Shown here one piece after another: positions 10,717 through 46,205 of a stretch of 64,000 bases of DNA. The DNA is taken from positions 2,542,001 to 2,606,000 of the forward strand of contig JAQOWU010000008.1 of NCBI GenBank assembly GCA_030867685.1. Direction: 5' to 3'. The position numbers and the translations under genes are program-made. Within the stretch, counting starts at the first letter, position 1, and every line of letters begins with the position of its first letter. Source of the DNA: Wickerhamiella versatilis. Taxonomy: Eukaryota. A model generated the notes under the pieces. That model did no database searches. It saw only the letters and a list, made by a program, of their open reading frames with translations, and was not told the origin of the DNA.

Positions 10717-11829
10717 ATGGATGATGATATTGGTCAAATGCGCTTCAACTCTTTTAAAGCCGCAGCTCAAGCTAAAGGTGACTTTCTATCCTTGAGTTCC
10801 TCGAGACAATGGCTTGCTGTGTGCACATTAAATCCACAGCAAGCTACGCTCCCCTGGATATGGGCATTGCACACACTTCTGAGAGAAATATCATCAGATT
10901 CCGGTGAGCTTTTAGAGTTCTGTGACAGACTACGCTGGTTTGGGCTTCATTTCGACTGGGATCAAGCTTTACTTATGCCTGAAGACGTAGGAGATCTGCT
11001 TCGAGGGGTGTGCAACCTTCCAGATAGTGTTCGTCCCCTGAAAAATATTATACTTGATATTATAATGACAACTTTTGATGAAAAAGTTTCAGATGGGCTA
11101 TCTTTAATCCATGTTTTGCGCCTAAAGCAGATGCCCTCCTACTTCATGAGAATCAGTGTACGTTTTCCTCCGAAACAATCTGATTTGCAACTGTATTTTT
11201 CCTCACTGACTTCCAAACTTGTAGATAAAGGTCAATTTTCTGAAGCTTCGATTTATGCGGCGATAGCTTTGTCGCTACAGTCTAGCTCAGTCCAAGCTTA
11301 TCGTATAGCTTCTCTGTCGAGTCTTGCGGCCCACGCGTCCCCAAGCATCGCCCCATTGAAAGATCGCAATGCACAATCAGGAAAAAAGTCATGTGCTCTG
11401 GTGACAAAGTTTTCTTCTTATTTCAGAGACTTAAGCATCTCGTCTCTAGCTGAAATTCACAATTTTGCGAAAAACAATGAGCAACGATTTCATGAATTAG
11501 GATTATGGAAGCTAGTAAAGGCATCAATGGTCCGAGCTCGAATCGAATACATTCACAAAGTACTACGTTATACCAAAATTGGGTGGTTTGATCTTGTTAA
11601 GACGGGACCAGAGTCGCTGGACGATCTCTTGGTCTATGGGTTACGCTGTAAAATTTATCAACGTGGGAACGAGATTATACTCAGTGAAAGCCCTTCAGAA
11701 GACCTCTTCATCCTTCTAGAAAGGGTTACAGCAGCTGCTAATGCATTAAGTGGCATGAAAAGTTTCCCACCTCAGGGTGCTAAAGATCCAGAGCCTGATG
11801 AAGATTCGGATGGCAAATGGGGCTCATGA
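10717..11829 (+). CDS. Uncharacterised helical protein, possibly divergent COP9 signalosome subunit 3 (PCI family)
   Basis: 370-aa ATG ORF; DLQLYFSS..KGQFSEASIYAAIALS..SVQAYRIASLSSL and FHELGLWKLVK..RIEYI resemble the CSN3/Rpn3 pattern; weak similarity only. Confidence 0.4.
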   Translation: MDDDIGQMRFNSFKAAAQAKGDFLSLSSSRQWLAVCTLNPQQATLPWIWALHTLLREISSDSGELLEFCDRLRWFGLHFDWDQALLMPEDVGDLLRGVCNLPDSVRPLKNIILDIIMTTFDEKVSDGLSLIHVLRLKQMPSYFMRISVRFPPKQSDLQLYFSSLTSKLVDKGQFSEASIYAAIALSLQSSSVQAYRIASLSSLAAHASPSIAPLKDRNAQSGKKSCALVTKFSSYFRDLSISSLAEIHNFAKNNEQRFHELGLWKLVKASMVRARIEYIHKVLRYTKIGWFDLVKTGPESLDDLLVYGLRCKIYQRGNEIILSESPSEDLFILLERVTAAANALSGMKSFPPQGAKDPEPDEDSDGKWGS

Positions 11830-12014: not shown

Positions 12015-13679
12015 CTATTCGGGAAAATCCATGAAATCATGTCGTTCACCCTTGGTATCTTCAGTGGCAGGGTTTTGTACTTGTTGCATATCTGGCGATG
12101 GTGATTCTATTGCGTCACGAATTTGCGTTTGTGATGATTGTCCCATATGAATTGGTGAAGGTGGAAACTGGAACTCCAGTGGAATAGTTTCGCGTCTTTC
12201 AGTTCTTGGGTCCGCACTTTGTGTCGAATGCAATTGATGAGGGATTTGAGTATTCGCTGCCGGTAATTGCATTGTGGTGGGGTGTTGCTGATGGCTAACC
12301 ATCTGTTGAGTTGATTGCGGTCCACGGGGAGCATGTGTTAGACTGTGCGCTCTTGTGTGCATCCGGGATTGGCCACGAGAGTGGGCTCGGGCATAAGCAG
12401 TAGGCGTGATGGTCGATCGTGAATGATGATGTGGCCGATATGTATTTTGTGCATTAGAAATATACTGTGATAATTGAGGCATCGCATAATATGGTGGTAC
12501 GACCGGTACATACTGTTGTCTTCTGTGAGGGTCTGTAGCTTGTGCTCTAGCCACACTCGATGAAGGAGCAGGACCTTCAATATTATGGGGCTGCAGTCTC
12601 GTGGGAATACCATTCATCCACTCAGCAAATCTTGGATTGCGCCTCTGAGCTGCTCTCACAACTTGCCTGGTGCGTGTTAGGTTCGATGGGTCATAAAGTA
12701 ACTTTGAGATATTGGCAACGAACAAAGGATACAGTTTATCGACCAAACCTTCTCGGCGTGCTATATTCAAAGCGCGCTCAAAAGGTATCCAAACACCTTT
12801 AAGGTGCATATTGCCTATTTTGACGACATGGCGAACCCTCTCCCCTTTTAGAATTCCATCGCGACGGCCTCGTGTCATTCCAGCTACATTGAGCAGCTTT
12901 GTACCATTTATCATATTGTTATCGCACCTTCTTGTGATACTGGATGCCTGTGTTTCTACAACAATGCAAAGTGTTGACTCCTCGTCCCAAGACATTGTTG
13001 TTGTACGTGCTGAACGGTCAGCGAGTGGTTGCTGACCAGGACCTCCTCTTGGAAGGTTGATAATACCCTGAAGTGAAGGAAATTGCTCTACTATGCGCAT
13101 TTGCTCTGAAGGAGTTTTCACGATAGGAGCTCCTGATAATGAAGAAGGAGCTTTGCTTGGTCCCGGTACTCCTTGACTTGCGCCGGAAGCATAGAACCCG
13201 GATTGCTCTAGGGGTGGACTCAAGCCGAATTCTGAGGATTGATGATACTCCTGTGAGCCTGGGAACTGGCCAATATACTGGTACTGAGGTGCTGGTGCTT
13301 GCTGATACCCTTGTTGATAGTCTCCGTAAGGCTCTTGCTGAGCTTGCTGTGGATATTCGGGGTAATAAGGTGAAACATAAGGGGCATAGTAGCCCTGTGA
13401 GTTCTGAGATGGATGTCCAGGATAGTAGTATTCTGCCTGTGGCCTATTTATGGGTTGCACAATCTGTTGTCGTTGTTGTAGAGATGGAAGCTGCGGTTGA
13501 AATCTTGGGAGCGAGAGATCATAAGCTTGTTGATATATTTGACGTGGATGTGGCCTGTTCTCTTGCTGATAGTCTTGTTCGTCCTCGGAACCACTGCTGG
13601 AAGCGTCATGGAAGCTCTGCTCTGAGCCTGAAGACCCAGCACTTGAACGAGTGTGGCTGCCTGGGGTAGACTCTTGCAT
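12015..13679 (-). CDS. APSES-domain transcription factor (Efg1/Phd1/Sok2/StuA family)
   Basis: [58 protein letters not shown]-rich flanks; first ATG at 13679. Confidence 0.92.
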
Positions 13680-21655: not shown

Positions 21656-23269
21656 CTAGGAGGCTGCGGCAGTTGCGAAGTCTATGGCAGCACTAGCAAT
21701 TTGATTACCAGCGCCAAAGCCTTTCTCGAGCCCATCTCCAACGAGAGACACTATTTGTCCAGCCGGCGTGGGTAATGAATTTCCAACAACATCAAGAATT
21801 GAGGCGACGCCATCTCCAATTGAGGTGACACCATCTGCAATAGGATGATCGGCCCTCCTAACCAAACCATTGGACTCACTATTGCGTAAGTCGCCGAGAG
21901 CTTCAGACAGTCCAAGTGCAATATGGAAAATCTTGTCCAACCTTTTATCAGTAGAGGAGGGAACAGGTGACGAGAGATCTTGCCTCTTTTCAAGGCCAGC
22001 AAGGTCCCCTAGATTCGAGCCGATACTACTTAGGCCAGACTCTACATCACCAGCTAAGTTTCCTAGGGAGCTGCTGTCATCTCCACCGCCCGTTAGGCTT
22101 CCCAACCCATCACTCACGGCACTTTCGACACTTGAAACAGCATCGCTAGTACCACTACTATCACCGGAACTACTACCACTACCCAGTAGATCTCCTAGAC
22201 CACCACTAACAGCGCTAGCTACGCTAGCCAGAGAGCCATCTGTACTGTCAGAACTTCCGCTACCTGTTGGAGAAGGAATCAATGCGGACAAGGCACCTAG
22301 ACCAGCACTTGCAAAACCTTGAAACAATCCAGCAGCTGCTGTCGCTGCTGATGCCACATCAGCACCGCTACCCAAAGAAATTGTAGTGGCGATAATTGAG
22401 ACCTGAGGAGCGTCTGCACGCCCAGCAAGATTTGAAGCTAATGTGTCCGAGGCCTGTACAGTTTGGGATGTCTCCAGGGTTTCTACCGATGCTGTAGCAC
22501 TTAAATCGCTAGTCGGAAGTACTGCACCGGTACCAGTGCCACCCACACCAATGGATGTTGAAGAAGTCGTTGCTTGTGTACTAACAGTCAAAGACTCAAG
22601 AAGCCCCGAGGACAGTGTAGTGCCAACGATAGAGCTTGTAGCAAGTATGGTATTAGCTGGGTTGTCACTCAACTCTGCCGAACCCAAAGTTATCCTTCCA
22701 GTAGCTGATGGTGCTGCTGCAACTTGCTGTGACCCTGCAGCTAATGTAGCCTCAACTACAGATAATACACTTCCTACGGCTGGTGGAATTGATTGTATGT
22801 TTAAAGCTGCAGTTATGGCTGCAAGTTGAGACTGGATTGCTGCAAGACCCGCACTCCCTACAGCACCATTTCCATTTCTAAGTTCAGAGTATAATTCATT
22901 GATGTCTTGAGGAAGATTCGAGCCAACAGCGAATGTGCTTTGGGTCGGGGATTCAGTTATTACAGCACTATTAACAGTGGTTGTACTTGCAAGGGTAGAT
23001 TCATCGGTAACGTTAGCCTCACTTACCACCGGTTGTACGCCTTGTTCAATCGTAATATGACTGACACCATTTGAAGGAGCTGCAGTCACGACTGGCTGTG
23101 TACTTACCGCTTGCTGATTTACAGTAACTGTGACCACTTGCTGAGAGCACCCTGGTACAATACTGTAGCCGCCATCACTACCATAACCTGGGATCCATTT
23201 GTGGAGCCAAGGTGCAGGTGCAGCGATAGCGGGATCAAGCCCTAACAAATAAATCAATAGCATTGTCAT
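21656..23269 (-). CDS. Orphan secreted Ser/Thr/Ala/Gly-rich protein with dibasic (KR/RR) processing sites
   Basis: 537 aa; hydrophobic N-terminus ending A-I-A-A-P; S/T-rich body; EKR, DKR and VRR near C-terminus. Confidence 0.7.
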   Translation of the reverse strand: MTMLLIYLLGLDPAIAAPAPWLHKWIPGYGSDGGYSIVPGCSQQVVTVTVNQQAVSTQPVVTAAPSNGVSHITIEQGVQPVVSEANVTDESTLASTTTVNSAVITESPTQSTFAVGSNLPQDINELYSELRNGNGAVGSAGLAAIQSQLAAITAALNIQSIPPAVGSVLSVVEATLAAGSQQVAAAPSATGRITLGSAELSDNPANTILATSSIVGTTLSSGLLESLTVSTQATTSSTSIGVGGTGTGAVLPTSDLSATASVETLETSQTVQASDTLASNLAGRADAPQVSIIATTISLGSGADVASAATAAAGLFQGFASAGLGALSALIPSPTGSGSSDSTDGSLASVASAVSGGLGDLLGSGSSSGDSSGTSDAVSSVESAVSDGLGSLTGGGDDSSSLGNLAGDVESGLSSIGSNLGDLAGLEKRQDLSSPVPSSTDKRLDKIFHIALGLSEALGDLRNSESNGLVRRADHPIADGVTSIGDGVASILDVVGNSLPTPAGQIVSLVGDGLEKGFGAGNQIASAAIDFATAAAS

Positions 23270-24592: not shown

Positions 24593-26140
24593 ATGTATCG
24601 AAGAATTGCAGCCTCAGGTACGGCATTGGCCGCTACTATTCTTTTTAGCAGCCAAACTGTGTTGCTAGACAGTAAAAAAGAAATCCCCGTGGAAGAATTA
24701 AAGAAACACAACAAGCCAAATGATTTATGGGTGGCTGCCAATGGTCAAGTCTATGACCTGACCCATTTCAAGAAAATCCATCCAGGAGGGGCCAAGATTC
24801 TGGAGAAATATGCAGGTTCCAATGCGAGCAAAATCTTCAATAAGTATCATGCTAAAGATATTCCTCAGAAAATGCTTTCTCCTAAGGAGCAGTTAGGGAC
24901 CTTGAAAGGAAATCTTGAAGAAGCCGAAGATATTACTGAAGGTGGAGACTCTAAAAAGCGCCAAGAGTATCTTGCCAATCTTCCTAGGCTCAGTGATTTG
25001 TTCAATATCAACGATTTCGAGTATATTGCGAAGCGCATCTTGGCGCCAACGGCTTGGTATTATTATTCCTCTTGTGCTGATGATGAATACACCTATAGGA
25101 ATAACCACAATGCCTACGAACGTATCTTTTTCAAACCATATGTTTGCCGAGATATTGGAGTGGTAGACATGACCACGGAAATGCTTGGTAGCACTGTGTC
25201 GGCCCCATTCTATTGCTCTGCTTGTGCACAGGCAAAACTTGGACATCCAGATGGAGAGAAGGGCATTGCCCGGGGTTGCGGTAAGCAAGGCATTGCGCAG
25301 ATGATTTCCAATTACGCGTCTTATTCTTTGGCAGAAATTGCGGGCCAAGTCCCTGACCAGGTGCAGTGGTTCCAGCTGTATACTTCACCTGACCGTCAGG
25401 TATCATTGGACCGCATAAAAGAAGCTGAGCAGAGAGGTATGAAAGGAATTTTCGTTACTGTGGATACACCTGAACTTGGTCGCCGTGAAAAGGATATGAA
25501 GGTCCGTGCGGAGATGAATCTCGGCGGCGATGATAGCTCAGACTCGAAAGAACTGAATTCCAGCGTGGTATATGGCAGGGCATTCCCAATGACATGGGAT
25601 GATGTACAACTTTTCAAGAAATCAACGAAACTCCCCATTGTGCTTAAGGGTATTCAGCGTACTGAAGATGTTATCCGTGCCGCAGAAAGTGGTGTGAAGG
25701 GAATTGTTCTATCAAATCATGGTGGTAGGCAATTGGACTTTTCTCCAGCGCCGATAGAAGTTCTTGCTGAGGCTCGACCTGCATTGAAGAAGCGAAACTT
25801 GGACCTTGAGATCTATATTGACGGAGGTGTGCGTCGTGGATCCGACATCATCAAGGCGCTTGCTCTAGGTGCTACTGGTGTCGGTCTTGGTCGTCCTTTT
25901 ATGTATGCTAACTCTGGATATGGCGAAGCTGGAGTGAACAGAGCCTGTGAAATGCTGAAACAAGAGATCGCTATTGACATGAAAATGCTGGGCGTCAGCA
26001 AATTATCGGAGCTCACTCCAGACCTTCTAGATACTCGTGGCTTGGCTTACAGACAGCCTCCATATGATGAAGCCTTCTACCGCAACTACGAGCCTTTGGG
26101 TGTTCCGAAATTCTCCAATGAGGTTGATACTGCTGCCTAG
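24593..26140 (+). CDS. CYB2: Flavocytochrome b2 (L-lactate cytochrome c oxidoreductase)
   Basis: Targeting peptide, cytochrome b5 domain (HPGG), FMN domain QWFQLY, LSNHGGRQLD, DGGVRRGSD; ATG at 24593. Confidence 0.92.
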   Translation: MYRRIAASGTALAATILFSSQTVLLDSKKEIPVEELKKHNKPNDLWVAANGQVYDLTHFKKIHPGGAKILEKYAGSNASKIFNKYHAKDIPQKMLSPKEQLGTLKGNLEEAEDITEGGDSKKRQEYLANLPRLSDLFNINDFEYIAKRILAPTAWYYYSSCADDEYTYRNNHNAYERIFFKPYVCRDIGVVDMTTEMLGSTVSAPFYCSACAQAKLGHPDGEKGIARGCGKQGIAQMISNYASYSLAEIAGQVPDQVQWFQLYTSPDRQVSLDRIKEAEQRGMKGIFVTVDTPELGRREKDMKVRAEMNLGGDDSSDSKELNSSVVYGRAFPMTWDDVQLFKKSTKLPIVLKGIQRTEDVIRAAESGVKGIVLSNHGGRQLDFSPAPIEVLAEARPALKKRNLDLEIYIDGGVRRGSDIIKALALGATGVGLGRPFMYANSGYGEAGVNRACEMLKQEIAIDMKMLGVSKLSELTPDLLDTRGLAYRQPPYDEAFYRNYEPLGVPKFSNEVDTAA

Positions 26141-26372: not shown

Positions 26373-27146
26373 ATGATGAGCCGTGAGAACCAACTGATCT
26401 TCGCTCGTCTGAGCGAGCAATCCCAGCGTTATGAGGAGATGGTTGAGCACATGGAAGCGCTTGTGAAGGAGGGCGAACCTCTGAATGTTGACGAACGGAA
26501 TCTGCTCTCAATCGCGTTTAAGAATGTGGTAGGCATCAGGCGTGCGTCCTGGCGTTTTGTATTGATGAGTGAACAACGTGAAGAGACACAAGGTGCCGCG
26601 CATCATGTTGAGCTAATCCGGGGATTCAGGCGAAAGATCGAGGGCGAACTGGAGCCTACCTGCCTAAAAATAATCCGTTTGGTCGATGAATATCTATTGC
26701 CAAATTCCCAAGACGCTGATGCTAAGATCGTATACCACAAAATGAAGGGAGATTACTATCGTTACCTTGCCGAATTTATTGAGGGGGATAAGAAGAAGGA
26801 AACGGCATCTGCTGCTTGTGAGTCTTATCGCGTGGCTTCAGAGTTGGCTCAGGAACTCCTGCTCCCAACACATCCGCTCCGCTTAGGACTTGCCCTCAAT
26901 TTCAGTGTGTTCCATTATGAGATTCTGAATTCGGCTGAACAAGCATGCCACCTCGCAAAAGAAGCCTTCGATGATGCAGTTCGTGCCCTGGACAGTTCTG
27001 AGCAAGACGATGGAACCATTGAAAGCAATGAGCTTTATCAGGACGCTGAACTGATCATGCAACTTCTCAGGGACAATCTTACCTTCTGGCAGAATGATCT
27101 AACTATGACCCAGCATCAGGTAAATAAAGAAGAAGATGCGTCCTAG
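26373..27146 (+). CDS. 14-3-3 protein (divergent Bmh paralogue)
   Basis: ERNLLSIAFKNVVG, RRASWR, KMKGDYYRYLAE, PTHPLRLGLALNFSVFHYEI, LIMQLLRDNLTFW. Confidence 0.93.
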   Translation: MMSRENQLIFARLSEQSQRYEEMVEHMEALVKEGEPLNVDERNLLSIAFKNVVGIRRASWRFVLMSEQREETQGAAHHVELIRGFRRKIEGELEPTCLKIIRLVDEYLLPNSQDADAKIVYHKMKGDYYRYLAEFIEGDKKKETASAACESYRVASELAQELLLPTHPLRLGLALNFSVFHYEILNSAEQACHLAKEAFDDAVRALDSSEQDDGTIESNELYQDAELIMQLLRDNLTFWQNDLTMTQHQVNKEEDAS

Positions 27147-27209
27147 GGGCTTCCCTTGATGAGTATGAACTAATTCATACATGAACACTGTTTTAAGTTA
27201 AATATAGCT

Positions 27210-29393
27210 TTAAAAAAGATATCCGCGGCATTTTTCTGAACCGCACATGCATTTTACGCGATCTTCACCCTCCTCGGCTGCGGTGAACTTATAATCAAAG
27301 GTGAGTTCTTCGCCTGGTGAAATATCACGTAGGGCGTATAAAACAATTCGCTTGGCCCCATCGACCCTGATGATTTTTGCCTCAAGGCTCGGATCGCACG
27401 AATGGTTGATAAACCGAGCTTGGTTACCACATTTTGTAGCATCAACAATATGTTCCAAGTCAATCCTGAACAGATAAGATGAATCGAGCCCCTCTGCGAG
27501 GTATTGGCGCTCTCTAGCATCACTGAACTCGTCGCGTAGCAATTCGCCAACATACTCAATCACAAATTCACGAGCTTCAATGGGCTCAGCCGCATACAAC
27601 CCCCAGTCATGAATAGCTGAGCGGGCAAGCCGGACATTCTTTGCCCGTCTATTGAGTGAACTTTCGAAGAAGAGTTCTGTGTTCATACCGTACCGCTGGC
27701 GATTATATTGCAACGCTCGAGCAACCCGCCTGCTCTCCATACGTTTCTCCCGGGAAGAATTATGTACTTCAGCCTCAAGAGGCTCAGCATTATCAACCTG
27801 TATCACATCTACAGGACCATTTCTGCGACGTGCTAAGAGATAAGAATCTTTAACATGACTTGGAATCTTGTGAAAAGGCTGGGTGCGCCAGGCAGGCGTA
27901 GGGTTACGCTTCCATTGCACGCCGTCAGTTGCAAAAGCATATACAGATTCAAGATGACGCTGCTCCTTAAGAAATTTCGTGATGTCTAAATTAGGGCGCC
28001 GTTTAACACCAGAAAACGCAGCTTTTGCAAACTCGAAATCTTCTTCATCCGAGACTAGATCTTGAAAGTTCCTCACACTAACGCCCAAGTCGCCCGCTGC
28101 TACAGCATGAGGAAGGCTGCTCCGCGATGGCAGCCATTGTGAAAATGGATCTGTACTCTCTTCGGGCACTAATGCACGGTCTGGCTCCGAATTCACGATT
28201 GAAACAGAGTCATCGCGAGCATCTGATATTTTTATGTCTTCATCTTCATCTTCCTCTTGTGGAGAACTAGTTGCTGACACTAGTTTGTCTTGTTCCGCTA
28301 ACTCAAGACGTCTACGCTTCTTGCGAAAGCTGGGCAGTATCATCGAATTATCTGTTGACGTCCCGTCAGGTTTCTGCTTTGGTATTAGACCCGCGGTCTG
28401 CCGTTCTACACAGTCATGTATATATGGAACCACAAAGAGTGTTAGTATCTCTCTAGCCACCACATCGCGGATTTCATTCGAGATACGGTCGCGTATAAGT
28501 TCCATAGATGTGTCGCCATCCTCCGAGGGCATCTGCTGGAGCTTTAGCGCTAATGGGAATCCATTAAAGCTTTTACCATCCATGGCTTTATAACAATATG
28601 CAGCTTCTTTGGCGTCTTCGAACACCACAAAGAACCCTGTAGCATTAGCGAGCACCCTGTACGCCCGAAAAGCACCAAAATGGTTGCGAATCTGGCCTTT
28701 ACTTGTTGCTCGAAAGCCAGGCCAGCCTATACGGCTAATGAAAATATATGGTAGGTTCCCGATTCTTTCGGAAACCCACTGCTCTTGTGTCAGCTTTGGT
28801 CGCTCTCCCTGGGACTCCATGGCATTAGCCTCTGAAGAGCGCTGTTTACCCTGAGCTGCTTCTAAGTTCCGCTCTTTTTCCCTCTTTGCATGCAAATTTT
28901 CGATGATTTTTCGTTCTTTTTCACCTCGCTGGTCAAATTCTGCTTGAACAAAATCTAGCCCAACCTGAATTTTTGGTGAAAGTTGTACTAACTTTTTCGC
29001 TGCTTCATGTTGATCCTCGTTATCCTTTCCAGCAAATCTAACACGGCATAAGCCAAGTGAAGCACCTGTCTGAAGGTCTTGAACAAGCTCACAAACAGCA
29101 CAATTACCAAAAGGGGCCAATGCACTTTCAACTTGCGAACGCATGGTGAGGCTTGAAAGTCCATAAATCAACACTTTCACCGGTGGAGGCCCTGCAAAAG
29201 AAGGCAGCCAACCTTCAGTCAGGGGGATCCGCCGATGAGCACCGTGGCGAGTCAATTCAGATATTAAGTGTCCACGTCGCGGATCCTCCGCTTTACCCCA
29301 TGGGCCTCCAACTTCATACCGAGGCTTACCCCTCTGGCCTATTAACTCAGGGTCAAAAACACACCGGTACTGGCGCGGAGGATCCGGGGCCAT
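27210..29393 (-). CDS. SET1: Histone H3K4 methyltransferase Set1 (compact)
   Basis: RRM1 (TGASLGLCRVRF), RRM2, n-SET RxxxRR, SET domain RSAIHDWGLYA, ARFINHSC, post-SET CMCGSEKCRGYL. Confidence 0.93.
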   Translation of the reverse strand: MAPDPPRQYRCVFDPELIGQRGKPRYEVGGPWGKAEDPRRGHLISELTRHGAHRRIPLTEGWLPSFAGPPPVKVLIYGLSSLTMRSQVESALAPFGNCAVCELVQDLQTGASLGLCRVRFAGKDNEDQHEAAKKLVQLSPKIQVGLDFVQAEFDQRGEKERKIIENLHAKREKERNLEAAQGKQRSSEANAMESQGERPKLTQEQWVSERIGNLPYIFISRIGWPGFRATSKGQIRNHFGAFRAYRVLANATGFFVVFEDAKEAAYCYKAMDGKSFNGFPLALKLQQMPSEDGDTSMELIRDRISNEIRDVVAREILTLFVVPYIHDCVERQTAGLIPKQKPDGTSTDNSMILPSFRKKRRRLELAEQDKLVSATSSPQEEDEDEDIKISDARDDSVSIVNSEPDRALVPEESTDPFSQWLPSRSSLPHAVAAGDLGVSVRNFQDLVSDEEDFEFAKAAFSGVKRRPNLDITKFLKEQRHLESVYAFATDGVQWKRNPTPAWRTQPFHKIPSHVKDSYLLARRRNGPVDVIQVDNAEPLEAEVHNSSREKRMESRRVARALQYNRQRYGMNTELFFESSLNRRAKNVRLARSAIHDWGLYAAEPIEAREFVIEYVGELLRDEFSDARERQYLAEGLDSSYLFRIDLEHIVDATKCGNQARFINHSCDPSLEAKIIRVDGAKRIVLYALRDISPGEELTFDYKFTAAEEGEDRVKCMCGSEKCRGYLF

Positions 29394-29431
29394 CCACCGT
29401 CTTAGAATTGGCTTCTATTACTAATGTGGTC

Positions 29432-29836
29432 ATGAGTGGTTCTCTTATCACTCAAGGATTGAATCACGATACTATTCTAACTGTTATAGATATATTGGAT
29501 GTTGGACATTCTCGACAGTCACAGCTCGAGAAGCATGAGAATAGTGGCCGTCAACAAGTAGATGGATCAACTGATGACGATGGTAATACTGCTCAAAAAA
29601 GCATTCTTACGACAACTTTGCGCCTGAGTGTCCAAACAAATGATGGAAAGACCTTTTTTATGTTATTTCGAAAACCACCGTTGAATATACCGAAGCTAGG
29701 CTGTACTTTTCGTCTCATAGACGGGGAATTCCACAGGGGGGTTCTACTCGTTAACTCAGAGGACCTCAGCTTAATCCAATCAGGTATGAAACTCACATCA
29801 GACGATATTAAGAAAAGGCTTGCAATTGATGGGTGA
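29432..29836 (+). CDS. RMI1: RecQ-mediated genome instability protein Rmi1 (OB-fold only)
   Basis: VIDILDVGHSRQSQLE..LRLSVQTNDG..KLGCTFRL..RGVLLV matches the Rmi1 N-terminal OB fold pattern; lies near MET12-RAD1 as in S. cerevisiae. Confidence 0.65.
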   Translation: MSGSLITQGLNHDTILTVIDILDVGHSRQSQLEKHENSGRQQVDGSTDDDGNTAQKSILTTTLRLSVQTNDGKTFFMLFRKPPLNIPKLGCTFRLIDGEFHRGVLLVNSEDLSLIQSGMKLTSDDIKKRLAIDG

Positions 29837-36330: not shown

Positions 36331-39300
36331 TTAACTCATACTTGTCTCCCTATATTGATCTTGACCATCATCATAGAGTTTTACCAGATGCCGCACAACA
36401 GTTTTGTCCATATCTGCAGCCATCAAAGCTCCGAGCAAGTGTTCCATGGTTGGAAAGATACCCAGACGGGGAACCTTGGTAGATCTACGGGCTTTTTCAA
36501 GCAAGATTTGTATTACATGGACGCCACGCTCGGTCATTTTGGCAAAGGGGCGCACAGTTTCAATTCGCTGTCCTGCATGAGAGCCCTGCTGCACCTGGTG
36601 AGAATTGAACACCACCATTCCCATAAAGTTTAGAACGCGGACAAACCTTGATCCTAAGTGATCTACTGACGCCAGCCATTGTTCTGCAATATTGGAAGCT
36701 GTAGGGTTGTTGTCATCCTCAGTATCAGGAATCATCTCAGCAAGCAACTCAGCAGCTATAAAGGCTTGCAGCAAAAGGGGGCATCGAGCATCGATATCAC
36801 GTGGTGGTGGTCGAAAATGGTTGGACGGAAGAACAGAAATTACCATTGCCCAAAGGCGTGTGAGAAATTCATAGGGACGAAGTTCCGTTTGAACTGCCCT
36901 TAAATACTGTGCAAGTATTCGTTTATATCCGGGATCTTCGGATGTCCCCAAAATCACATCTCGCATGAGACGAGAATTGTTAGGTTCATGAGATATAACC
37001 TTCACTAGTATATCAATAGCATGAGGTAGATATCTATAGACCTCAACATCAACATTTGGGAAGAGAATACCATCCTCCTTGAAAGGTCCTTGCAGTGGAC
37101 TGAAGCTCAAGATAAACAATAACAGAGTGAATGCCTCTTGCTCATTTCTCAATTCGAAGTGAAGCGATACATTGGATAAAACAATCGCTATGTCCTTGCA
37201 TAAATCCAGAGTGCGCAAGTGAGAATCAAGCAAGCATTCATGCGAAGCCAACAGATCGAGCATCTCCCATAAGAGAGTGAGAAATTCAGGTTTTCGAGCA
37301 ATTAGCGGCCGGTTTTGCTCAGAAAAAGACAGATTGCGAAGAACGCATGTCGCACTGAGCAGTCTGTCGCAAGCGGCTGTGAGAAAGAACGTGTCCACTT
37401 CTTCACTTGGTTTATTCAGTTCCCTTATTTCAGTTTCAATTTTCTCATAACGCTCGGTGTAATTCAAGAATCTCACCTTTTTCTTATCCTCAGAAACTCC
37501 CTGTGATTGGTTGTCCGTTTCTCTTTTTGGACTATCGTTAACCTCGTGCTTCACTCTTACTCCATCGCCAGCAATTTTGGCTTCTGGACCTGATAACACA
37601 TCTCCCGTTCGCGAATCTACCTCTAGAACGATACCATCAGAAACCATTTGCTTTCTTTTAGCTTCAGCGACTAACTCGTCTGTCTTAGACTGTGGTTCTG
37701 AGGGAGGAACTGGCTCTGACTTACGCTTGGTCGAAATATGTTTCATATGGCCCTTCTCGCGTGCAATTACCGGTAAAACTGATCTCATCACCTGACACAA
37801 ATTAGCCAGCAGCCTTGGACAGTGTTGTAAAGACTTATGCATTCTTGGGTTTGCCGTCACAACAATGAGTTTGTCAAGACTCTGTCTGACCTCTGCTACA
37901 TCATTTGAAGCAAGACTAAGTGTGATAGCATGAAGATCCACAGTTCCTAAGTCGAGTGGGAAAGCTACATCAGGGCGCCAGTTTTCAGTTTCATTTCCAA
38001 GCATGGAGATGTATCGCACGTCTCGTCCGCCAAATGTTGTAAGATGCCGTCTTTGCAACAAATATGTTTGATTATCTGTCGCCGGTTTGAAAACATTTTC
38101 CTCCCGTTTCTCGCGAGCTTCTGTCTCACGCTGTATTGCTTGCACGCGAGCTTGTTCAAGGCGCTGAGCGGCTTCAAGTCGCGCCATTTCTTTACGCTGT
38201 TGCTCTTGTCGCTGTTGCTGTTGCTGCTGTTGTAGCCGTTGCCGTTGTAACTGTTGCACCTGAGCTTGCTGCGCTTGTTGTGCCTGCTGTGCTTGTTGTG
38301 CTTGTTGTGCTTGTTGCGCCTGCTGTGCCTGCTGTGCTTGCTGTGCCTGCTGTATCTGTGCTTGCGATGCTGCTTGAGGAGGTTGTTGCTGCGGGCGCTG
38401 TTGCTGTTGTAATTGCTGTTGTTGTTGTCGCTGCTGCTGCTGTCGCTGTTGCTGTTGCTGCATAAATTGTCGCTGCTGTCTCGGATCTAGTTTTAACCGT
38501 TTTGCTTGCTGTTGCTGCATCAGAGAAGTCACACCACCAGTCGGTGGCCGCTGCGATCCCATTTGTTGGGTACCAGCCGCGGCACCAGCTTGCTGAACCG
38601 CTATACTCCGTGGAACAAATCTCTCCAAAAGAAAATCGCTGGCATTAGACGCTTCTTCAAACAGTAACAATTGTCTAGCATACACTTGTATCAAGTCAAA
38701 TATTGAATTTTCACTTGCTCCAATTCGAAGCTGTTGAGCTATCAAGGGCCACTTTGAACCTCGGGTAGCCAAGATATATCCGCCTTGCGCCTGGACTACT
38801 ACAAAAAGGTTAAACATTGGCATGAGTGTTCCAGCGATTCGAGTTGTTGGTTGTGGCGGAGTCAGTGGTCGCTCATAGTTTCTTGCATTAGCGGTATAAA
38901 AGTCTACCAGTGCTTTAAACCACAATTCAGGGTTTACGTATGCCCAAAGGACCGTGGTCAGTCTTGGAGGTTGTTCAGGCGGGGGCCTCGAAAACAAACG
39001 CGAAATCATGGCTGCACATTCCTGCGGTGGAAGTGCGTTAGTACGCAGCATGATTTCTTCGGGTATCTCATCACCACGTTTATGTATGTGGCTATAGTAA
39101 AAAAGTGCGAAGACTGTCAGCTTGTCGGAATTCTTCACGCCCATGGAATCCGTTCGAGGATGCGGTTGCTGTTGCTGCTGATGCTGTTGCTGCTGATGAT
39201 GCTGATTTCCAGTGGAACTTACAGACGTTCGACGTGTTCCAGGCAACGGGACCTGCGACCCGCGCAGATCAGCCATGTCAAATGACGAGCCCGGAACAGG

Positions 39301-39993
39301 AGTTTGAGGCGTTGAGGGCGTATGTGGAGGAACAGAATGAAGTGGACCTGGAATTGTAGCCGATCCTGTTCTGGGAATCGGAGGTGCACCTGGCATCGCT
39401 CCACGAAACATAGCCGGCCCAGAAATGGCCGTTGGGCTTACAGCACTACCTGGCCTCCGAATACCTTTCATATCCTGCACGCCTTGAAAACCTGCTGGAT
39501 AACCACTTAGCGGCATACCTAGAGGATTTATCCCCTGCTGAGGCATTGCCTGAGAAGGAATTGAATTGCGCATCATTCCATGAGGCGGGATCCCTCGTGA
39601 CACATTTGGGAATACATTGGGGGTACTTGTGGGTCTCTCTTGTTGGACTGGAATAGCGAGAGGCGAATCCGGAGGTGGTGGTCCTGCACTGACTGGTGGG
39701 GGAATGTCTGTCGGCACAGGTGTGCCTGAAAGTTTGTGGGTGATATTCGGCGAATCACTCATAGTTGGACCTGTCTTGGGAGCGATATCTTTATCCGGGG
39801 CTTCGATATCGAGGCCCAAATCCGTAGGTGCATTCAGCCATGCGGTGGGATCTGCAAATTCATCTACAGGGTCCATTGCTAGATCACCATCCAAAAATTC
39901 TAGTCCTCCCTTATCCGCAGAATTCGAATCTACGGGAATCCTGAAATCTGCGTCAAATAATGGCTCCAGGTCGCCAGACATCGACACTTCCAT
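36331..39993 (-). CDS. SWI1: SWI/SNF subunit Swi1 (ARID1 family)
   Basis: ARID-like FNLFVVVQAQGGY..KWPLIAQQL..YARQLLLFE; polyQ; LGTVDLHAITLSLAS; VLRNLSFSEQN; synteny with RAD1. Confidence 0.85.
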   Translation of the reverse strand: MEVSMSGDLEPLFDADFRIPVDSNSADKGGLEFLDGDLAMDPVDEFADPTAWLNAPTDLGLDIEAPDKDIAPKTGPTMSDSPNITHKLSGTPVPTDIPPPVSAGPPPPDSPLAIPVQQERPTSTPNVFPNVSRGIPPHGMMRNSIPSQAMPQQGINPLGMPLSGYPAGFQGVQDMKGIRRPGSAVSPTAISGPAMFRGAMPGAPPIPRTGSATIPGPLHSVPPHTPSTPQTPVPGSSFDMADLRGSQVPLPGTRRTSVSSTGNQHHQQQQHQQQQQPHPRTDSMGVKNSDKLTVFALFYYSHIHKRGDEIPEEIMLRTNALPPQECAAMISRLFSRPPPEQPPRLTTVLWAYVNPELWFKALVDFYTANARNYERPLTPPQPTTRIAGTLMPMFNLFVVVQAQGGYILATRGSKWPLIAQQLRIGASENSIFDLIQVYARQLLLFEEASNASDFLLERFVPRSIAVQQAGAAAGTQQMGSQRPPTGGVTSLMQQQQAKRLKLDPRQQRQFMQQQQQRQQQQRQQQQQLQQQQRPQQQPPQAASQAQIQQAQQAQQAQQAQQAQQAQQAQQAQQAQQAQVQQLQRQRLQQQQQQQRQEQQRKEMARLEAAQRLEQARVQAIQRETEAREKREENVFKPATDNQTYLLQRRHLTTFGGRDVRYISMLGNETENWRPDVAFPLDLGTVDLHAITLSLASNDVAEVRQSLDKLIVVTANPRMHKSLQHCPRLLANLCQVMRSVLPVIAREKGHMKHISTKRKSEPVPPSEPQSKTDELVAEAKRKQMVSDGIVLEVDSRTGDVLSGPEAKIAGDGVRVKHEVNDSPKRETDNQSQGVSEDKKKVRFLNYTERYEKIETEIRELNKPSEEVDTFFLTAACDRLLSATCVLRNLSFSEQNRPLIARKPEFLTLLWEMLDLLASHECLLDSHLRTLDLCKDIAIVLSNVSLHFELRNEQEAFTLLLFILSFSPLQGPFKEDGILFPNVDVEVYRYLPHAIDILVKVISHEPNNSRLMRDVILGTSEDPGYKRILAQYLRAVQTELRPYEFLTRLWAMVISVLPSNHFRPPPRDIDARCPLLLQAFIAAELLAEMIPDTEDDNNPTASNIAEQWLASVDHLGSRFVRVLNFMGMVVFNSHQVQQGSHAGQRIETVRPFAKMTERGVHVIQILLEKARRSTKVPRLGIFPTMEHLLGALMAADMDKTVVRHLVKLYDDGQDQYRETSMS
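38198..38520 (-). repeat. CAG/CAA-rich polyQ and (QQA)n coding repeat in SWI1
   Basis: TGC/TGT runs on + strand encoding QQQQ and about 10 tandem QQA units. Confidence 0.9.
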
Positions 39994-45113: not shown

Positions 45114-46205
45114 ATGCTTCGATTTGCCAGAATCCGATCGCCTGTGGTCGGTGCATGGAGGTGTTCAAGAACACCTTTACCACTTTGCTTTCGTAGATGG
45201 AATACCCAGTTGCCTGATTCAACTGATAAGTCGAAAGACCTTTTGTCAAACGAACTGCAAAACCGAATCCCGAAGTTTCCTCTGCATAAAGATTTGGCGC
45301 CTACTCTAATACCAAAGTCTGATACTCCTCGCGTTGGTCCTAACATGAGCTTCAAGCAGCTTGTCGAACGCCTAGCAAATAGCAAAACCCCGGAGCTGAT
45401 CTATATGGCAGAATCTCACCGGCTTTACTTCATTGCATGTTTTGCCCTAGCATTTATAGGTGCGTACAACTTGTTTGATATGCTTGATCAAGCAGTGCCG
45501 GTCATAATCAAGAGCTTCCAGGAAAATGATCTGGAGGGCCAGCCCATAGAGAACCTCGCTCAGCTCATTAGAAGATTTGGCATTGTAGGTTTGATGTGCA
45601 CCGCTTATCTTGTCACCGGTTTATTTTTCGCTACATTTCCATCTCGATTGGTTCGTCGTATTGAGTTTGTTCCACATGACAAGGGATCTCTTATCCGCCT
45701 TGTTACCCATCCGTGGATCCCAGGAAGACCCTCTCCGGTAATTACTGTTCCAGCTCGCGATCTTAGCATCGGTAACCGCTCCAAGGTATGGACAGGTGAG
45801 GGATTCTATGGTGCTGCCTCTAAGTCCTCTTTCTTCTTCTTCCTCTGGGAAAAGGATCGGCGCTTACCTTGGGTCGTAGATCGAAGTGGATGGTTCTGGG
45901 GAGATGCTAGAGTTTATGACGTTCTGTTTGGTAAGGAACCTGTAGCAGTCGCAGAATTGGGTCTTAGCTATGATGATATGCTTAGTCGAGAGGTATTGGC
46001 AGCAGAAAAGAAAAAAGCGGAGCTTCGTCGAGAACTCGGTCCAGCATGGAGATTCAAAGCATCCAATCAGCTCATGAAAGAGGATGTGATGAGTATAGGA
46101 AAGCGTGGCAAGGCGGCAGTCATGGCGACCCTAGGCAAAGGTGGAAATTCTAAAGAACTACCTGAAGATAAGAAATCTGTACATAAAGACGGCAACGCTA
46201 AGTAG
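45114..46205 (+). CDS. Mitochondrial inner-membrane protein with two TM helices (possibly TMEM223-like)
   Basis: Arg-rich presequence MLRFARIRSP..RRWNT; two hydrophobic segments followed by PSRLVRRIEF. Confidence 0.55.
   Translation: MLRFARIRSPVVGAWRCSRTPLPLCFRRWNTQLPDSTDKSKDLLSNELQNRIPKFPLHKDLAPTLIPKSDTPRVGPNMSFKQLVERLANSKTPELIYMAESHRLYFIACFALAFIGAYNLFDMLDQAVPVIIKSFQENDLEGQPIENLAQLIRRFGIVGLMCTAYLVTGLFFATFPSRLVRRIEFVPHDKGSLIRLVTHPWIPGRPSPVITVPARDLSIGNRSKVWTGEGFYGAASKSSFFFFLWEKDRRLPWVVDRSGWFWGDARVYDVLFGKEPVAVAELGLSYDDMLSREVLAAEKKKAELRRELGPAWRFKASNQLMKEDVMSIGKRGKAAVMATLGKGGNSKELPEDKKSVHKDGNAK

What the first reader, a model, noticed from the sequence alone, without database searches (positions are those of the whole stretch)
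27297..27299. Set1 carries a natural Phe at the Phe/Tyr switch (EELTFDY instead of EELTYDY)
Seen: the minus-strand codon at 27297-27299 is TTT, giving GEELTFDYKF. Established: Set1/MLL enzymes have Tyr here (S. cerevisiae Y1052, MLL1 Y3942), and Tyr-to-Phe raises intrinsic H3K4 trimethylation and in yeast suppresses loss of Spp1/Cps40. The protein is also short (727 aa) and its n-SET WIN-like segment reads AWRTQP rather than the usual ARTEG. Inference: this lineage may run a rewired or reduced COMPASS with a constitutive trimethylase.
Basis: partly seen in the sequence, partly recalled or inferred. Interest (0 to 1): 0.75.

Follow-up and report, generated by a model that had tools for sequence, protein, structure and literature searches.

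The report
Yeast Set1 with natural Phe switch
A food-fermentation yeast and its few closest relatives carry a working-looking histone H3K4 methyltransferase (Set1) whose active site has phenylalanine where almost all other Set1 proteins have tyrosine, a change that in baker's yeast raises trimethylation.

Summary
The minus-strand codon at 27297-27299 is TTT (Phe699, GEELTFDYKF) in an intron-less, expressed 727-aa Set1 orthologue (27210-29393). It aligns with S. cerevisiae Y1052. Two DNA assemblies and RNA reads from a second strain show the same base.

Phe is rare. Of 237 aligned Set1 orthologues, 232 have Tyr and 5 have Phe. The five are each other's best hits and form one long-branched clade next to Wickerhamiella, Blastobotrys and Trichomonascus.

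The clade also departs from the family at seven other near-invariant positions. At three active-site positions (Sc 963, 1010, 1052) it has the residues seen in 13 of 13 Phe-type AWS-SET methyltransferases.

The "reduced COMPASS" reading is not supported. RRM, SET_assoc, N-SET, SET and post-SET are all present. The RxxxRR motif and the n-SET block that carries the Spp1 site in S. cerevisiae are kept. The short length and the "AWR" segment are shared with Tyr-type relatives. The subunit complement could not be searched, because no genome is held.

The most likely reading is a natural, selectively kept Set1 variant biased towards H3K4me3. This is inferred from engineered Y1052F and Y3942F alleles, not measured. 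I rate it a new variant of a known kind, of moderate interest.

The parts
27210..29393 (-). SET1 orthologue, 727 aa plus stop codon. It is intron-less and expressed.
   Evidence: ORF. Pfam RRM_1, SET_assoc, N-SET and SET. Best solved relatives are K. lactis and S. cerevisiae Set1. RNA depth runs across the whole ORF with no joints. It is collinear from Met1 with the 723-aa sister-species protein P0002.
27297..27299 (-). TTT codon, Phe699, at the Phe/Tyr switch (S. cerevisiae Y1052, MLL1 Y3942).
   Evidence: No other letter in 4 of 4 runs laid. Tyr in 232 of 237 orthologues and Phe in 5.
27288..27605 (-). SET domain, residues 597-702. The catalytic residues matching Sc G951, Y967, Y993, R1013, N1016, H1017, Y1054 and F1056 are kept.
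   Evidence: Pfam SET at 2.5e-27. Alignments. Residue roles from PMC3585878.
27543..27566 (-). FVIEYVGE. Phe610 replaces the family's Met (Sc M963), one of the clade-specific changes.
   Evidence: Met in 94.8% of 232 Tyr-type rows, Phe in 5 of 5 clade rows and in 8 of the 232 others. Phe in 13 of 13 AWS-type SET proteins.
27396..27428 (-). GNQARFINHSC. Asn657 stands where most Set1 have Gly (Sc G1010). The NHSC cofactor/zinc motif is kept.
   Evidence: Asn in 5 of 5 clade rows and 13 of 13 AWS-type rows, Gly in 6 of 7 Tyr-type rows shown.
27468..27491 (-). GLDSSYLF. Asp637 replaces the near-invariant Gly (Sc G990).
   Evidence: Gly in 95.3% of 232 rows, Asp or Glu in 5 of 5 clade rows.
27213..27251 (-). 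Post-SET CxCx4C (CMCGSEKC) and the C-terminus GYLF. The family's invariant terminal Asn (Sc N1080) is replaced by Phe.
   Evidence: Asn in 221 of 221 Tyr-type rows with a residue there, and F, F, M, M, Y in the clade.
27669..28082 (-). N-SET domain, residues 438-575.
   Evidence: Pfam N-SET at 36.9 bits against a cut-off of 28.3.
28014..28070 (-). n-SET opening block NFQDLVSDEEDFEFAKAAF. It aligns to S. cerevisiae ~763-781, the segment whose removal abolishes Spp1 interaction.
   Evidence: Alignments (window to Lachancea P0091; P0091 to 6ven_N). The statement on the 780-1080 truncation is in PMC7195483. Binding itself is inferred, not tested.
27873..27893 (-). WIN-like segment AWRTQPF.
   Evidence: The Arg is kept. 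Gly-to-Pro at Sc 859 is clade-specific.
27726..27758 (-). SSREKRMESRR, the RxxxRR (arginine-rich) motif that binds the nucleosome acidic patch and senses H2B-ubiquitin in S. cerevisiae.
   Evidence: It aligns to Sc SSRDNRASNRR. The roles of R901, R904, R908 and R909 are in PMC7039682.
29022..29171 (-). RRM_1, residues 75-124.
   Evidence: E 1.1e-07.
28551..28697 (-). SET_assoc (second RRM-like region), residues 233-281.
   Evidence: E 2.9e-11.
29343..29369 (-). N-terminal motif YRCVFDPEL, shared with clade members and with Tyr-type relatives.
   Evidence: the N-termini of P0018, P0025, P0177, P0004, P0005, P0003 and P0135 carry the same motif type.
29416..29423 (-). Transcript 5' ends, about 23-30 nt upstream of the ATG.
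   Evidence: table 7. Loose ends there read like a cDNA template-switch adapter; that identification is mine, from recall.

Best explanation
This is the genuine, expressed catalytic subunit of a COMPASS-type H3K4 methyltransferase. In the common ancestor of a small, fast-evolving yeast clade (three deep lineages, five 90%-identity clusters in the public data), the Tyr of the Phe/Tyr switch was replaced by Phe and has been kept since. Other changes at near-invariant SET positions came with it: Sc F942L, M963F, G990D/E, G1010N, I1038L, E1059A/S and loss of the terminal Asn.

Three of these positions (963, 1010, 1052) now carry the residues of Phe-type SET enzymes. Removing the Tyr hydroxyl is expected to favour successive methyl transfers. 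The enzyme should therefore give more H3K4me3 and less me1, and depend less on the me3-promoting subunit Spp1.

The rest of the protein still looks built to work inside COMPASS and to sense H2B-ubiquitin: two RRMs, the n-SET domain with the Spp1-site block, RxxxRR and post-SET.

Shown here: the residue, its expression, its rarity, its clade-wide retention and the accompanying substitutions. Inferred: the shift in product distribution and the retained partner binding.
For: - Codon and alignment.
- Reads: 4 of 4 runs agree, including a strain that differs at 15 fixed sites in the ORF. Of those, 9 are synonymous and 6 non-synonymous, and the 3 that fall in the SET domain are all synonymous.
- Census: 232 Tyr and 5 Phe among 237 aligned orthologues. 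Among 356 stored proteins, 346 have Tyr and 10 have Phe, all 10 in the same five clusters.
- Reciprocal searches from P0018 and P0177 return the same five clusters first, followed by a gap: 216 then 197 bits and 183 then 154 bits.
- One clade in three trees: FastTree on 237 rows, support 100; IQ-TREE C20 on 46 rows, SH-aLRT 96; and 42 rows with the eight diagnostic columns removed by hand and four long rows left out, SH-aLRT 95.
- Of 83 columns at least 90% conserved in the Tyr-type rows, clade members depart at 12, 12, 23, 24 and 31, against a median of 1. All five depart at eight positions, and three of those states occur in none of the others.
- Convergence with 13 of 13 AWS-type SET proteins at Sc 963, 1010 and 1052.
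- Catalytic residues, NHSC, the post-SET cysteines, RxxxRR and the n-SET block are kept.
- Engineered precedent: Y1052F gives me1 0.56, me2 0.84 and me3 1.49 of wild type, and MLL1 Y3942F gains di- and trimethylation (PMC3585878). Y1052F is hyperactive and alters respiration (PMC5126570).
Against: - No methylation data exist for this organism.
- Y1052F is phenotypically 'silent' in the silencing and ipl1-2 assays of PMC3585878, so the change could be nearly neutral.
- The other active-site substitutions could cancel its effect.
- All clade members sit on long branches, and treekit warns of long-branch joins. A single origin is therefore well supported but not proven. The trees use one gene and a 'quick' search without bootstraps.
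- In one search I could not confirm that the requested columns were actually dropped.
- N-SET is not among the precomputed Pfam hits of P0018, P0025 or P0177. Their RxxxRR and Spp1-site blocks are degenerate. Retained COMPASS wiring is therefore argued only for the window's own lineage.
Confidence: 0.6

Rival explanations
1. Near-neutral or internally compensated drift. Set1 of this clade evolves fast under relaxed constraint. Tyr-to-Phe is one tolerated change among many, and together with the other substitutions it leaves the H3K4me1/2/3 pattern about normal.
For: Clade members depart from the family consensus at 12-31 of 83 conserved columns, against a median of 1. Branches are long. Y1052F is classed as 'silent' for rDNA silencing and ipl1-2 suppression in S. 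cerevisiae.
Against: Phe and Tyr are one base apart (TTT and TAT), yet Phe and the whole EELTFDY motif are invariant across three deeply diverged lineages. No Tyr-type Set1 among 232 carries Phe. The co-changes at Sc 963 and 1010 go to exactly the states of Phe-type SET enzymes, which looks directed rather than random. Between two strains the SET domain shows only synonymous differences. Y1052F does change H3K4me3 and respiration in S. cerevisiae.
Confidence: 0.25
2. Reduced or rewired COMPASS. The clade has lost Spp1 or another me3-promoting partner, and Phe, together with the Set2-like active-site states, compensates by making the SET domain an autonomous trimethylase.
For: Clade-wide remodelling of the SET domain towards the states of partner-independent SET enzymes. 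N-SET falls below Pfam detection and RxxxRR is degenerate in lineages B and C. Loss of Spp1 lowers only me3 in S. cerevisiae (PMC3909785). From recall, Takahashi 2009 reported that Y1052F offsets this; that paper was not seen.
Against: In the window's own protein, N-SET passes Pfam's cut-off. The block matching the S. cerevisiae Spp1 site and the RxxxRR motif are kept. Short length and 'AWR' are shared with Tyr-type relatives. No subunit gene could be searched, because no genome is held, and none lies in the window.
Confidence: 0.12
3. Division of labour between paralogues. A second, Tyr-type Set1/MLL-like gene lies elsewhere in the genome, and this Phe copy is a specialised trimethylase, as plant H3K4 methyltransferase paralogues differ at the switch.
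For: Plants hold paralogues with different switch residues; ATX1, ATX2 and ATXR7 are stated to have Tyr (PMC9372134). Two unnamed long-branch Tyr-type proteins (P0135, P0171) fall in the same polytomy as the clade, and their organisms are unknown to me.
Against: From general knowledge, not tested here, ascomycete yeasts normally have a single Set1. The window protein keeps the full Set1 architecture. No whole genome was available to look for a second copy.
Confidence: 0.03

Closest known systems
S. cerevisiae Set1 Y1052F (engineered allele)
   Same: Same family and same position: Phe in place of the switch Tyr inside EELT-x-DY. All other catalytic residues are as in wild type.
   Different: The yeast allele is a single laboratory substitution in an otherwise canonical SET domain. 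Here Phe is natural and ancient, and it comes with seven further departures at near-invariant positions.
Human MLL1 Y3942F (engineered)
   Same: Equivalent switch position in a KMT2 SET domain. The mutant gains di- and trimethylation on an H3 peptide without partners, as summarised in PMC3585878.
   Different: It is an MLL-type protein of different architecture, and an engineered change rather than a natural one.
AWS-SET methyltransferases (Set2/ASH1/NSD-like), natural Phe-type enzymes
   Same: They share the states at Sc 963 (Phe), 1010 (Asn) and 1052 (Phe) in 13 of 13 sequences compared.
   Different: They have an AWS domain, often with PHD or zf-CW, and no N-SET, RRM or SET_assoc. The window protein has no AWS hit. 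Its best solved relatives are Set1 at 1e-60, against ASH1L, SETD2 and NSD at 1e-28 to 1e-24. It is therefore not a member; the resemblance is convergent.
Tyr-type Set1 of Wickerhamiella sorbophila (P0004) and unnamed relatives P0003 and P0005
   Same: These are the nearest named relatives in the tree. They are also short (790-814 aa), with the same N-terminal motif type and the same 'AWR' segment.
   Different: They have Tyr at the switch and the family consensus at all eight positions where the Phe clade departs.
Arabidopsis H3K4 methyltransferase paralogues (ATX and ATXR)
   Same: The switch residue varies naturally within H3K4 methyltransferases and is linked to product state. ATX1, ATX2 and ATXR7 have Tyr and mainly control me1 (PMC9372134, passage).
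   Different: That variation lies between paralogues of one genome. Here it apparently affects the sole Set1 orthologue of a yeast clade. Which plant paralogues carry Phe is shown in a supplementary figure that I could not see.

Membership tests
Set1/KMT2 (COMPASS catalytic subunit) | SET domain with the GxG, IEY, NHSC and ELxxDY motifs and the catalytic residues | tested here: met
   Pfam SET at 95.8 bits. The equivalents of Sc G951, Y967, Y993, R1013, N1016, H1017, Y1054 and F1056 are present (roles).
Set1/KMT2 (COMPASS catalytic subunit) | Post-SET cysteine cluster CxCx4C plus the NHSC cysteine | tested here: met
   CMCGSEKC at residues 715-722 and NHSC at 663-666. The terminal Asn of the family is replaced by Phe.
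Set1/KMT2 (COMPASS catalytic subunit) | N-SET domain with the RxxxRR motif ahead of SET | tested here: met
   Pfam N-SET at 36.9 bits against a cut-off of 28.3. SSREKRMESRR aligns to Sc R901, R904, R908 and R909.
Set1/KMT2 (COMPASS catalytic subunit) | N-terminal RRM and SET_assoc region | tested here: met
   RRM_1 at 32.0 bits and SET_assoc at 43.2 bits.
Set1/KMT2 (COMPASS catalytic subunit) | Closest relatives are Set1 orthologues | tested here: met
   Set1 chains at 1e-60 to 1e-54, MLL at 1e-40, ASH1L/SETD2/NSD at 1e-28 or weaker. The named hits are all Set1.
Set1/KMT2 (COMPASS catalytic subunit) | Tyr at the Phe/Tyr switch (a hallmark of the family rather than a requirement for membership) | tested here: not met
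   Phe699. Tyr in 232 of 237 orthologues.
Set1/KMT2 (COMPASS catalytic subunit) | Assembly with Swd1, Swd3, Bre2, Sdc1, Spp1, Swd2 and Shg1 | not testable with these tools
   No genome is held. No subunit gene lies in the window. The only indirect evidence is retention of the Spp1-site block and of the N-terminal motif.
Set1/KMT2 (COMPASS catalytic subunit) | H3K4 methyltransferase activity and product distribution | not testable with these tools
   This needs biochemistry or mass spectrometry.
AWS-SET (Set2/ASH1/NSD-like) Phe-type methyltransferases | AWS domain directly ahead of SET | tested here: not met
   No AWS hit at E up to 0.01; N-SET is there instead.
AWS-SET (Set2/ASH1/NSD-like) Phe-type methyltransferases | Phe at the switch, with Phe at Sc 963 and Asn at Sc 1010 | tested here: met
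   the window protein shares these three states with 13 of 13 AWS-type sequences. This is a functional resemblance only.

The most novel reading that the evidence does not exclude
A whole yeast clade has turned its only H3K4 methyltransferase into an intrinsically trimethylating, Set2-like active site (M963F, G1010N, Y1052F and a remodelled C-terminus) on a Set1 scaffold. It did so because the me3-promoting arm of COMPASS (Spp1 and n-SET control) was weakened or lost. That loss would be already visible in lineages B and C, whose n-SET is degenerate, and incipient in the window's lineage. If so, this is a natural experiment in which product specificity moved from a regulatory subunit into the catalytic pocket.
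Probability: 0.2. Interest if true: 0.7.

Novelty: new variant of a known kind. Interest (0 to 1): 0.45.

Why it matters
The Phe/Tyr switch is the textbook determinant of how many methyl groups a SET enzyme adds. The Set1/MLL family is the known oddity: it makes H3K4me3 despite having Tyr, and relies on partner subunits to do so. As far as my searches show, the Phe state in this family has been studied only as an engineered allele.

A natural, long-retained Phe-type Set1, with co-changes that mimic partner-independent SET enzymes, gives three things:
- a ready-made test of whether Tyr is kept in Set1 so that COMPASS subunits, H2B-ubiquitin and transcription can tune me1/me2/me3;
- a set of candidate second-site residues (Sc 942, 963, 990, 1010, 1038, 1059, 1080) that may be coupled to the switch;
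- a tractable yeast, present in food fermentations, in which altered H3K4me3 dosage may tie into physiology, given that Y1052F changes respiration in S. cerevisiae.

If the methylation pattern turns out normal, the case instead shows how far a SET active site can be rebuilt without changing its output.

Tried and rejected
- Whole-genome search for SPP1, SWD1, SWD2, SWD3, BRE2, SDC1 or a second SET1: impossible, because no genome is held.
- COMPASS genes within the window: none. Pfam scans of 30 of the 32 ORFs of 200 aa or more listed (the Set1 ORF was scanned, and the 203-aa ORF 46490-47101 that overlaps a longer gene was left out) found no PHD, SPRY or Dpy-30 protein. The one WD40 protein (5869-6813) is Bub3/Rae1-like, not Swd3 or Swd2. 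A six-frame motif scan found no histone H3 N-terminus and no PHD-like pattern inside a real ORF.
- Earlier notes of this scan: nothing for this genome, this sequence or these words.
- Names for the Phe-clade clusters: none carry one, so the clade is placed only by the Set1 tree.
- Direct PDB alignment of the n-SET start (residues 430-545): 0 hits at E up to 10. I mapped it instead through Lachancea P0091.
- Literature. Takahashi 2009 (PMC2698764) is not held. 'Starmerella' with 'H3K4' found 0 papers. 'Tyr switch', 'H3K4', 'phenylalanine' and 'naturally' together found 0 papers. 'Y1052F' with 'Spp1' found only the two papers already read. A five-term search at min_terms 2 was too loose to be informative. 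The library leaves out most subscription journals.
- RNA holders: no holder found through the word index is on record as RNA. The two RNA runs that I laid came from the species label.
- Sequencing error and pseudogene: rejected.
- Gene conversion from a Set2-like gene: rejected. Overall similarity is to Set1, and only three positions match the AWS-type state.
- Structure and complex prediction were not run. They would return no coordinates for contact analysis, and no Spp1 sequence was available from any tool.
Full report
**1. The observation**

Read on the minus strand, 27340-27281 contains ggc gaa gaa ctc acc ttt gat tat aag ttc. Positions 27297-27299 are AAA on the + strand, so TTT on the minus strand. 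The codon is residue 699 of the ORF at 27210..29393(-), which is 727 aa under the standard code.

HMMER alignments to solved Set1 chains put Phe699 opposite the first Tyr of EELTYDY. The chains are K. lactis 6ugm_M (1.3e-60) and 6chg_C, and S. cerevisiae 6ven_N (1.2e-58) and 6bx3_E. Chain 6ven_N ends ...CKGFLN at its residue 358. If that is N1080 (protein length recalled), chain index plus 722 gives the S. cerevisiae number, and window residue plus 353 gives the same. Phe699 is then Y1052. PMC3585878 names Y1052 as the Phe/Tyr switch position of Set1 and Y3942 as its MLL1 equivalent (passages).

**2. It is not an error, and the gene model holds**

I laid four runs on 27000-29600.
- Two contig runs (X6, X12) each cover the stretch in one piece with 0 other letters. 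They may be sources of this DNA and are not independent evidence.
- Two raw-read RNA runs filed under the same species label (X24, X21) cover every bin. They differ from the window at 15 fixed places within the ORF, so they come from another strain. They list no other letter at 27297-27299, where mean depth in bin 27261-27347 is 33.9+11.1 and 24.5+23.

Of the 15 fixed differences, 9 are synonymous and 6 non-synonymous. The 3 that fall in the SET domain are all synonymous.

There are no joints, so there is no intron. Loose ends at 29416-29423 look like cDNA adapter sequence (my reading, from recall). They place the 5' end 23-30 nt upstream of the ATG at 29393. In-frame stops lie just upstream of that ATG.

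A 723-aa protein from a sister species (P0002) aligns from Met1 to the last residue and also has Phe. It is 89% identical over the C-terminal region and 72.7% over the whole length. The 656-aa public gene call P0001 simply starts at an internal GTG.

**3. What the protein is**

Pfam finds four domains:
- RRM_1, residues 75-124
- SET_assoc, residues 233-281
- N-SET, residues 438-575, at 36.9 bits against a cut-off of 28.3
- SET, residues 597-702, at 95.8 bits

The equivalents of Sc G951, Y967, Y993, R1013, N1016, H1017, Y1054 and F1056 are all present. PMC3585878 shows by mutation that these residues matter. The NHSC cysteine and the post-SET CxCx4C cluster are also present.

The segment SSREKRMESRR aligns to Sc SSRDNRASNRR. 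That is the RxxxRR motif, whose R901, R904, R908 and R909 bind the nucleosome acidic patch and underlie H2B-ubiquitin sensing (PMC7039682, passages).

This is a full-architecture Set1 orthologue.

**4. How rare Phe is**

- A word-indexed search with residues 480-727 found 1958 proteins at E up to 1e-20 among 4062 candidates, and listed the best 120. Of those 120, 116 read Tyr and 4 read Phe. My regular expression scored 112 Tyr and missed 4 rows that plainly read ELTYDY.
- An exhaustive HMMER search of 1.84 billion representatives with residues 431-727 found 1083 proteins at E up to 1e-30, and listed the best 150.
- I aligned the query with the 236 other stored proteins; P0001, the window's own, was left out. 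The result was 232 Tyr and 5 Phe: the query, P0002, P0018, P0025 and P0177.
- After adding cluster members, the 356 stored proteins gave 346 Tyr and 10 Phe, all ten in those same five clusters.
- The 69 proteins added by the last search gave 32 Tyr, 13 Phe and 24 not scorable. All 13 Phe proteins are AWS, PHD or zf-CW SET proteins with no N-SET, so they are not Set1. Of the 24, 23 are gene models that end just before the switch, and one (P0420) has no motif.

Only the listed best hits could be examined. Hundreds of weaker hits were not seen.

**5. One clade**

Searches started from P0018 and from P0177 return the same five clusters first, followed by a gap.
- From P0018: 628, 560, 240, 225 and 216 bits, then 197.
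- From P0177: 560, 246, 240, 191 and 183 bits, then 154.

The five rows also fall on one side of a branch in three trees.
- FastTree on all 237 rows gives support 100, and 0 of 500 label shuffles score as low.
- IQ-TREE LG+C20 'quick' on 46 rows that I chose (5 Phe rows, 23 named, 18 unnamed) gives SH-aLRT 96.
- A 42-row tree gives SH-aLRT 95. For this one I removed the eight diagnostic columns by hand and left out four long rows (P0177, P0171, P0135, P0150).

The clade sits with Wickerhamiella sorbophila (P0004), Blastobotrys (P0122) and Trichomonascus (P0076).

There are caveats. This is a single gene, with long branches and long-branch warnings from the tool, no bootstraps, and no confirmation that actually dropped the requested columns.

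None of the clade's clusters carries a source name. Phe is one base from Tyr, yet it and the whole EELTFDY motif are invariant across the three deep lineages. That argues for retention by selection.

**6. The switch did not change alone**

There are 83 alignment columns at least 90% conserved among the 232 Tyr-type rows. The five clade members are the five most deviant sequences of all 237, with 31, 24, 23, 12 and 12 departures against a median of 1.

All five depart from the consensus at eight positions (S. cerevisiae numbering):

| Position | Change in the clade |
|---|---|
| G859 | P, A or W |
| F942 | L |
| M963 | F |
| G990 | D or E |
| I1038 | L |
| Y1052 | F |
| E1059 | A or S |
| N1080 | F, M or Y |

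The clade's states at 942, 1052 and 1080 occur in none of the 232 (for 1080, 221) other rows.

I also aligned the clade with 13 AWS-type SET proteins. The clade's Phe at 963, Asn at 1010 and Phe at 1052 are the states of 13 of 13 of those Phe-type enzymes. The seven Tyr-type Set1 shown have Met in 7 of 7, Gly in 6 of 7 and Tyr in 7 of 7.

Overall similarity remains clearly Set1, so this is convergence and not gene conversion. I cannot say how these positions contact one another, because no coordinates were available. Any coupling between 963 and 1052 is inference.

**7. Does COMPASS look reduced?**

This could not be tested directly. No genome is held, and the window contains no subunit gene. 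The indirect evidence, for the window's lineage, points against reduction.

- *Spp1 site.* PMC7195483 states that truncating Set1 to 780-1080 removes the Spp1 interaction site, whereas 762-1080 keeps it (passage). PMC3909785 describes n-SET as the Spp1/Cps40-interacting region (passages). In 6ven_N the segment after the tag reads MDLQNAIKDEEDMLILKQLL, about residues 762-781. Mapped through Lachancea P0091, this aligns to window residues 442-460, NFQDLVSDEEDFEFAKAAF. The Gln, the DEED and the Lys are identical.
- *Arginine-rich motif.* RxxxRR is intact.
- *WIN-like segment.* It keeps its Arg. The Wickerhamiella relatives read AWRLRGY. S. cerevisiae and K. lactis read SFKAEGF and SFIAEGF, with no Arg at all.
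- *Length.* Lengths of 724-814 aa are found among the Tyr-type neighbours. These, like the window protein, start directly with the [FY][RK]C[VIL][FY]DP motif instead of a long leader.

Lineages B (P0018, P0025) and C (P0177) are different. N-SET is missing from their precomputed Pfam lists, and their RxxxRR and Spp1-site blocks are degenerate. A weakened n-SET arm is therefore conceivable deeper in the clade.

**8. What is known**

- Y1052F, Y1052A and Y1052V raise H3K4me3 and lower me1. For Y1052F the values are me1 0.56, me2 0.84 and me3 1.49 of wild type. The allele behaves as wild type in the rDNA-silencing and ipl1-2 assays. MLL1 Y3942F gains di- and trimethylation on peptide (PMC3585878).
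- SET1(Y1052F) is described as hyperactive and causes hyper-respiration on a non-fermentable medium (PMC5126570).
- Loss of Spp1 lowers me3 only (PMC3909785).
- That Y1052F offsets Spp1 loss is my recollection of Takahashi 2009, which is not held.
- Plant ATX1, ATX2 and ATXR7 are stated to have Tyr at the switch and to control mainly me1 (PMC9372134). The supplementary figure was not visible.
- My searches found no paper on a natural Phe in a fungal Set1, or on H3K4 methylation in Starmerella. The library omits most subscription journals.

**9. Reading**

- *Most likely (0.6).* This is a natural Set1 variant retained by selection. Its active site has moved towards the Phe-type configuration. 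It probably gives a higher me3:me1 ratio and depends less on Spp1, while still working in a COMPASS-like complex.
- *Neutral or compensated drift (0.25).* The Phe is one of many tolerated changes in a fast-evolving protein, and the methylation pattern stays normal.
- *A Tyr-type paralogue elsewhere in the genome (0.03).*
- *Sequencing error or pseudogene.* Excluded.

**10. Verdict**

The mechanistic inference is plausible but unmeasured. The 'reduced COMPASS' arguments from protein length and the WIN-like segment do not hold. I rate the finding a new variant of a known kind, with interest 0.45.

Noticed in passing
window 27171-27249: The convergent 14-3-3 gene (ORF 26373-27146, +) has poly(A) loose ends at 27249 (6 reads in X24). 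Its mRNA therefore overlaps about the last 13 codons of SET1, whose stop codon is at 27210-27212. The two are overlapping convergent transcripts.
   Followed up: no
window 27210-29393: The strain in the RNA runs differs from the window at 15 fixed sites in SET1: 9 synonymous and 6 non-synonymous. All 6 non-synonymous sites lie at residue 442 or before, and none is in the SET domain. The changes are N442K, G434D, E364D, S186F, Q143P and S65Y.
   Followed up: yes
window 28502: C>A in 3 of 30 reads of X24 only (2 start places). It would turn Glu298 into a stop. It is absent from X21 (0 of 109 reads) and is probably read error.
   Followed up: partly
window 29180 region; protein P0001: The public automatic gene call for this locus (P0001, 656 aa) starts at an internal GTG (Val72 read as Met). 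The RNA 5' ends and the sister-species protein support the 727-aa model.
   Followed up: yes
proteins P0387-P0415: Twenty-three public Set1 gene models of filamentous fungi end in unrelated residues just after '...RDIAQS'. They are cut before the switch motif, apparently by a missed intron. Automated censuses of this residue will silently lose them.
   Followed up: partly
window 5869-6813 (+): A 314-aa WD40 protein. Its best solved relatives are Rae1 (mRNA export factor) and Bub3 at about 1e-14. It is not a COMPASS WD40 subunit.
   Followed up: yes
window 778-2154, 10717-11829, 21656-23269, 45114-46205, 58200-60077: Five ORFs of 363-625 aa have no Pfam hit at E up to 1e-5.
   Followed up: no
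window 24593-26140 (+); 12015-13679 (-); 36331-39993 (-): Neighbouring genes: a cytochrome b2-type protein (Cyt-b5 plus FMN_dh), a KilA-N/APSES-type protein of 554 aa, and a 1220-aa ARID protein.
   Followed up: no
(runs): Twenty listed rows in 11 studies hold the stretch or part of it. Many hold all sampled words and are labelled food or food-fermentation metagenome; some are labelled sediment metagenome. Only X12 and X6 were laid.
   Followed up: partly
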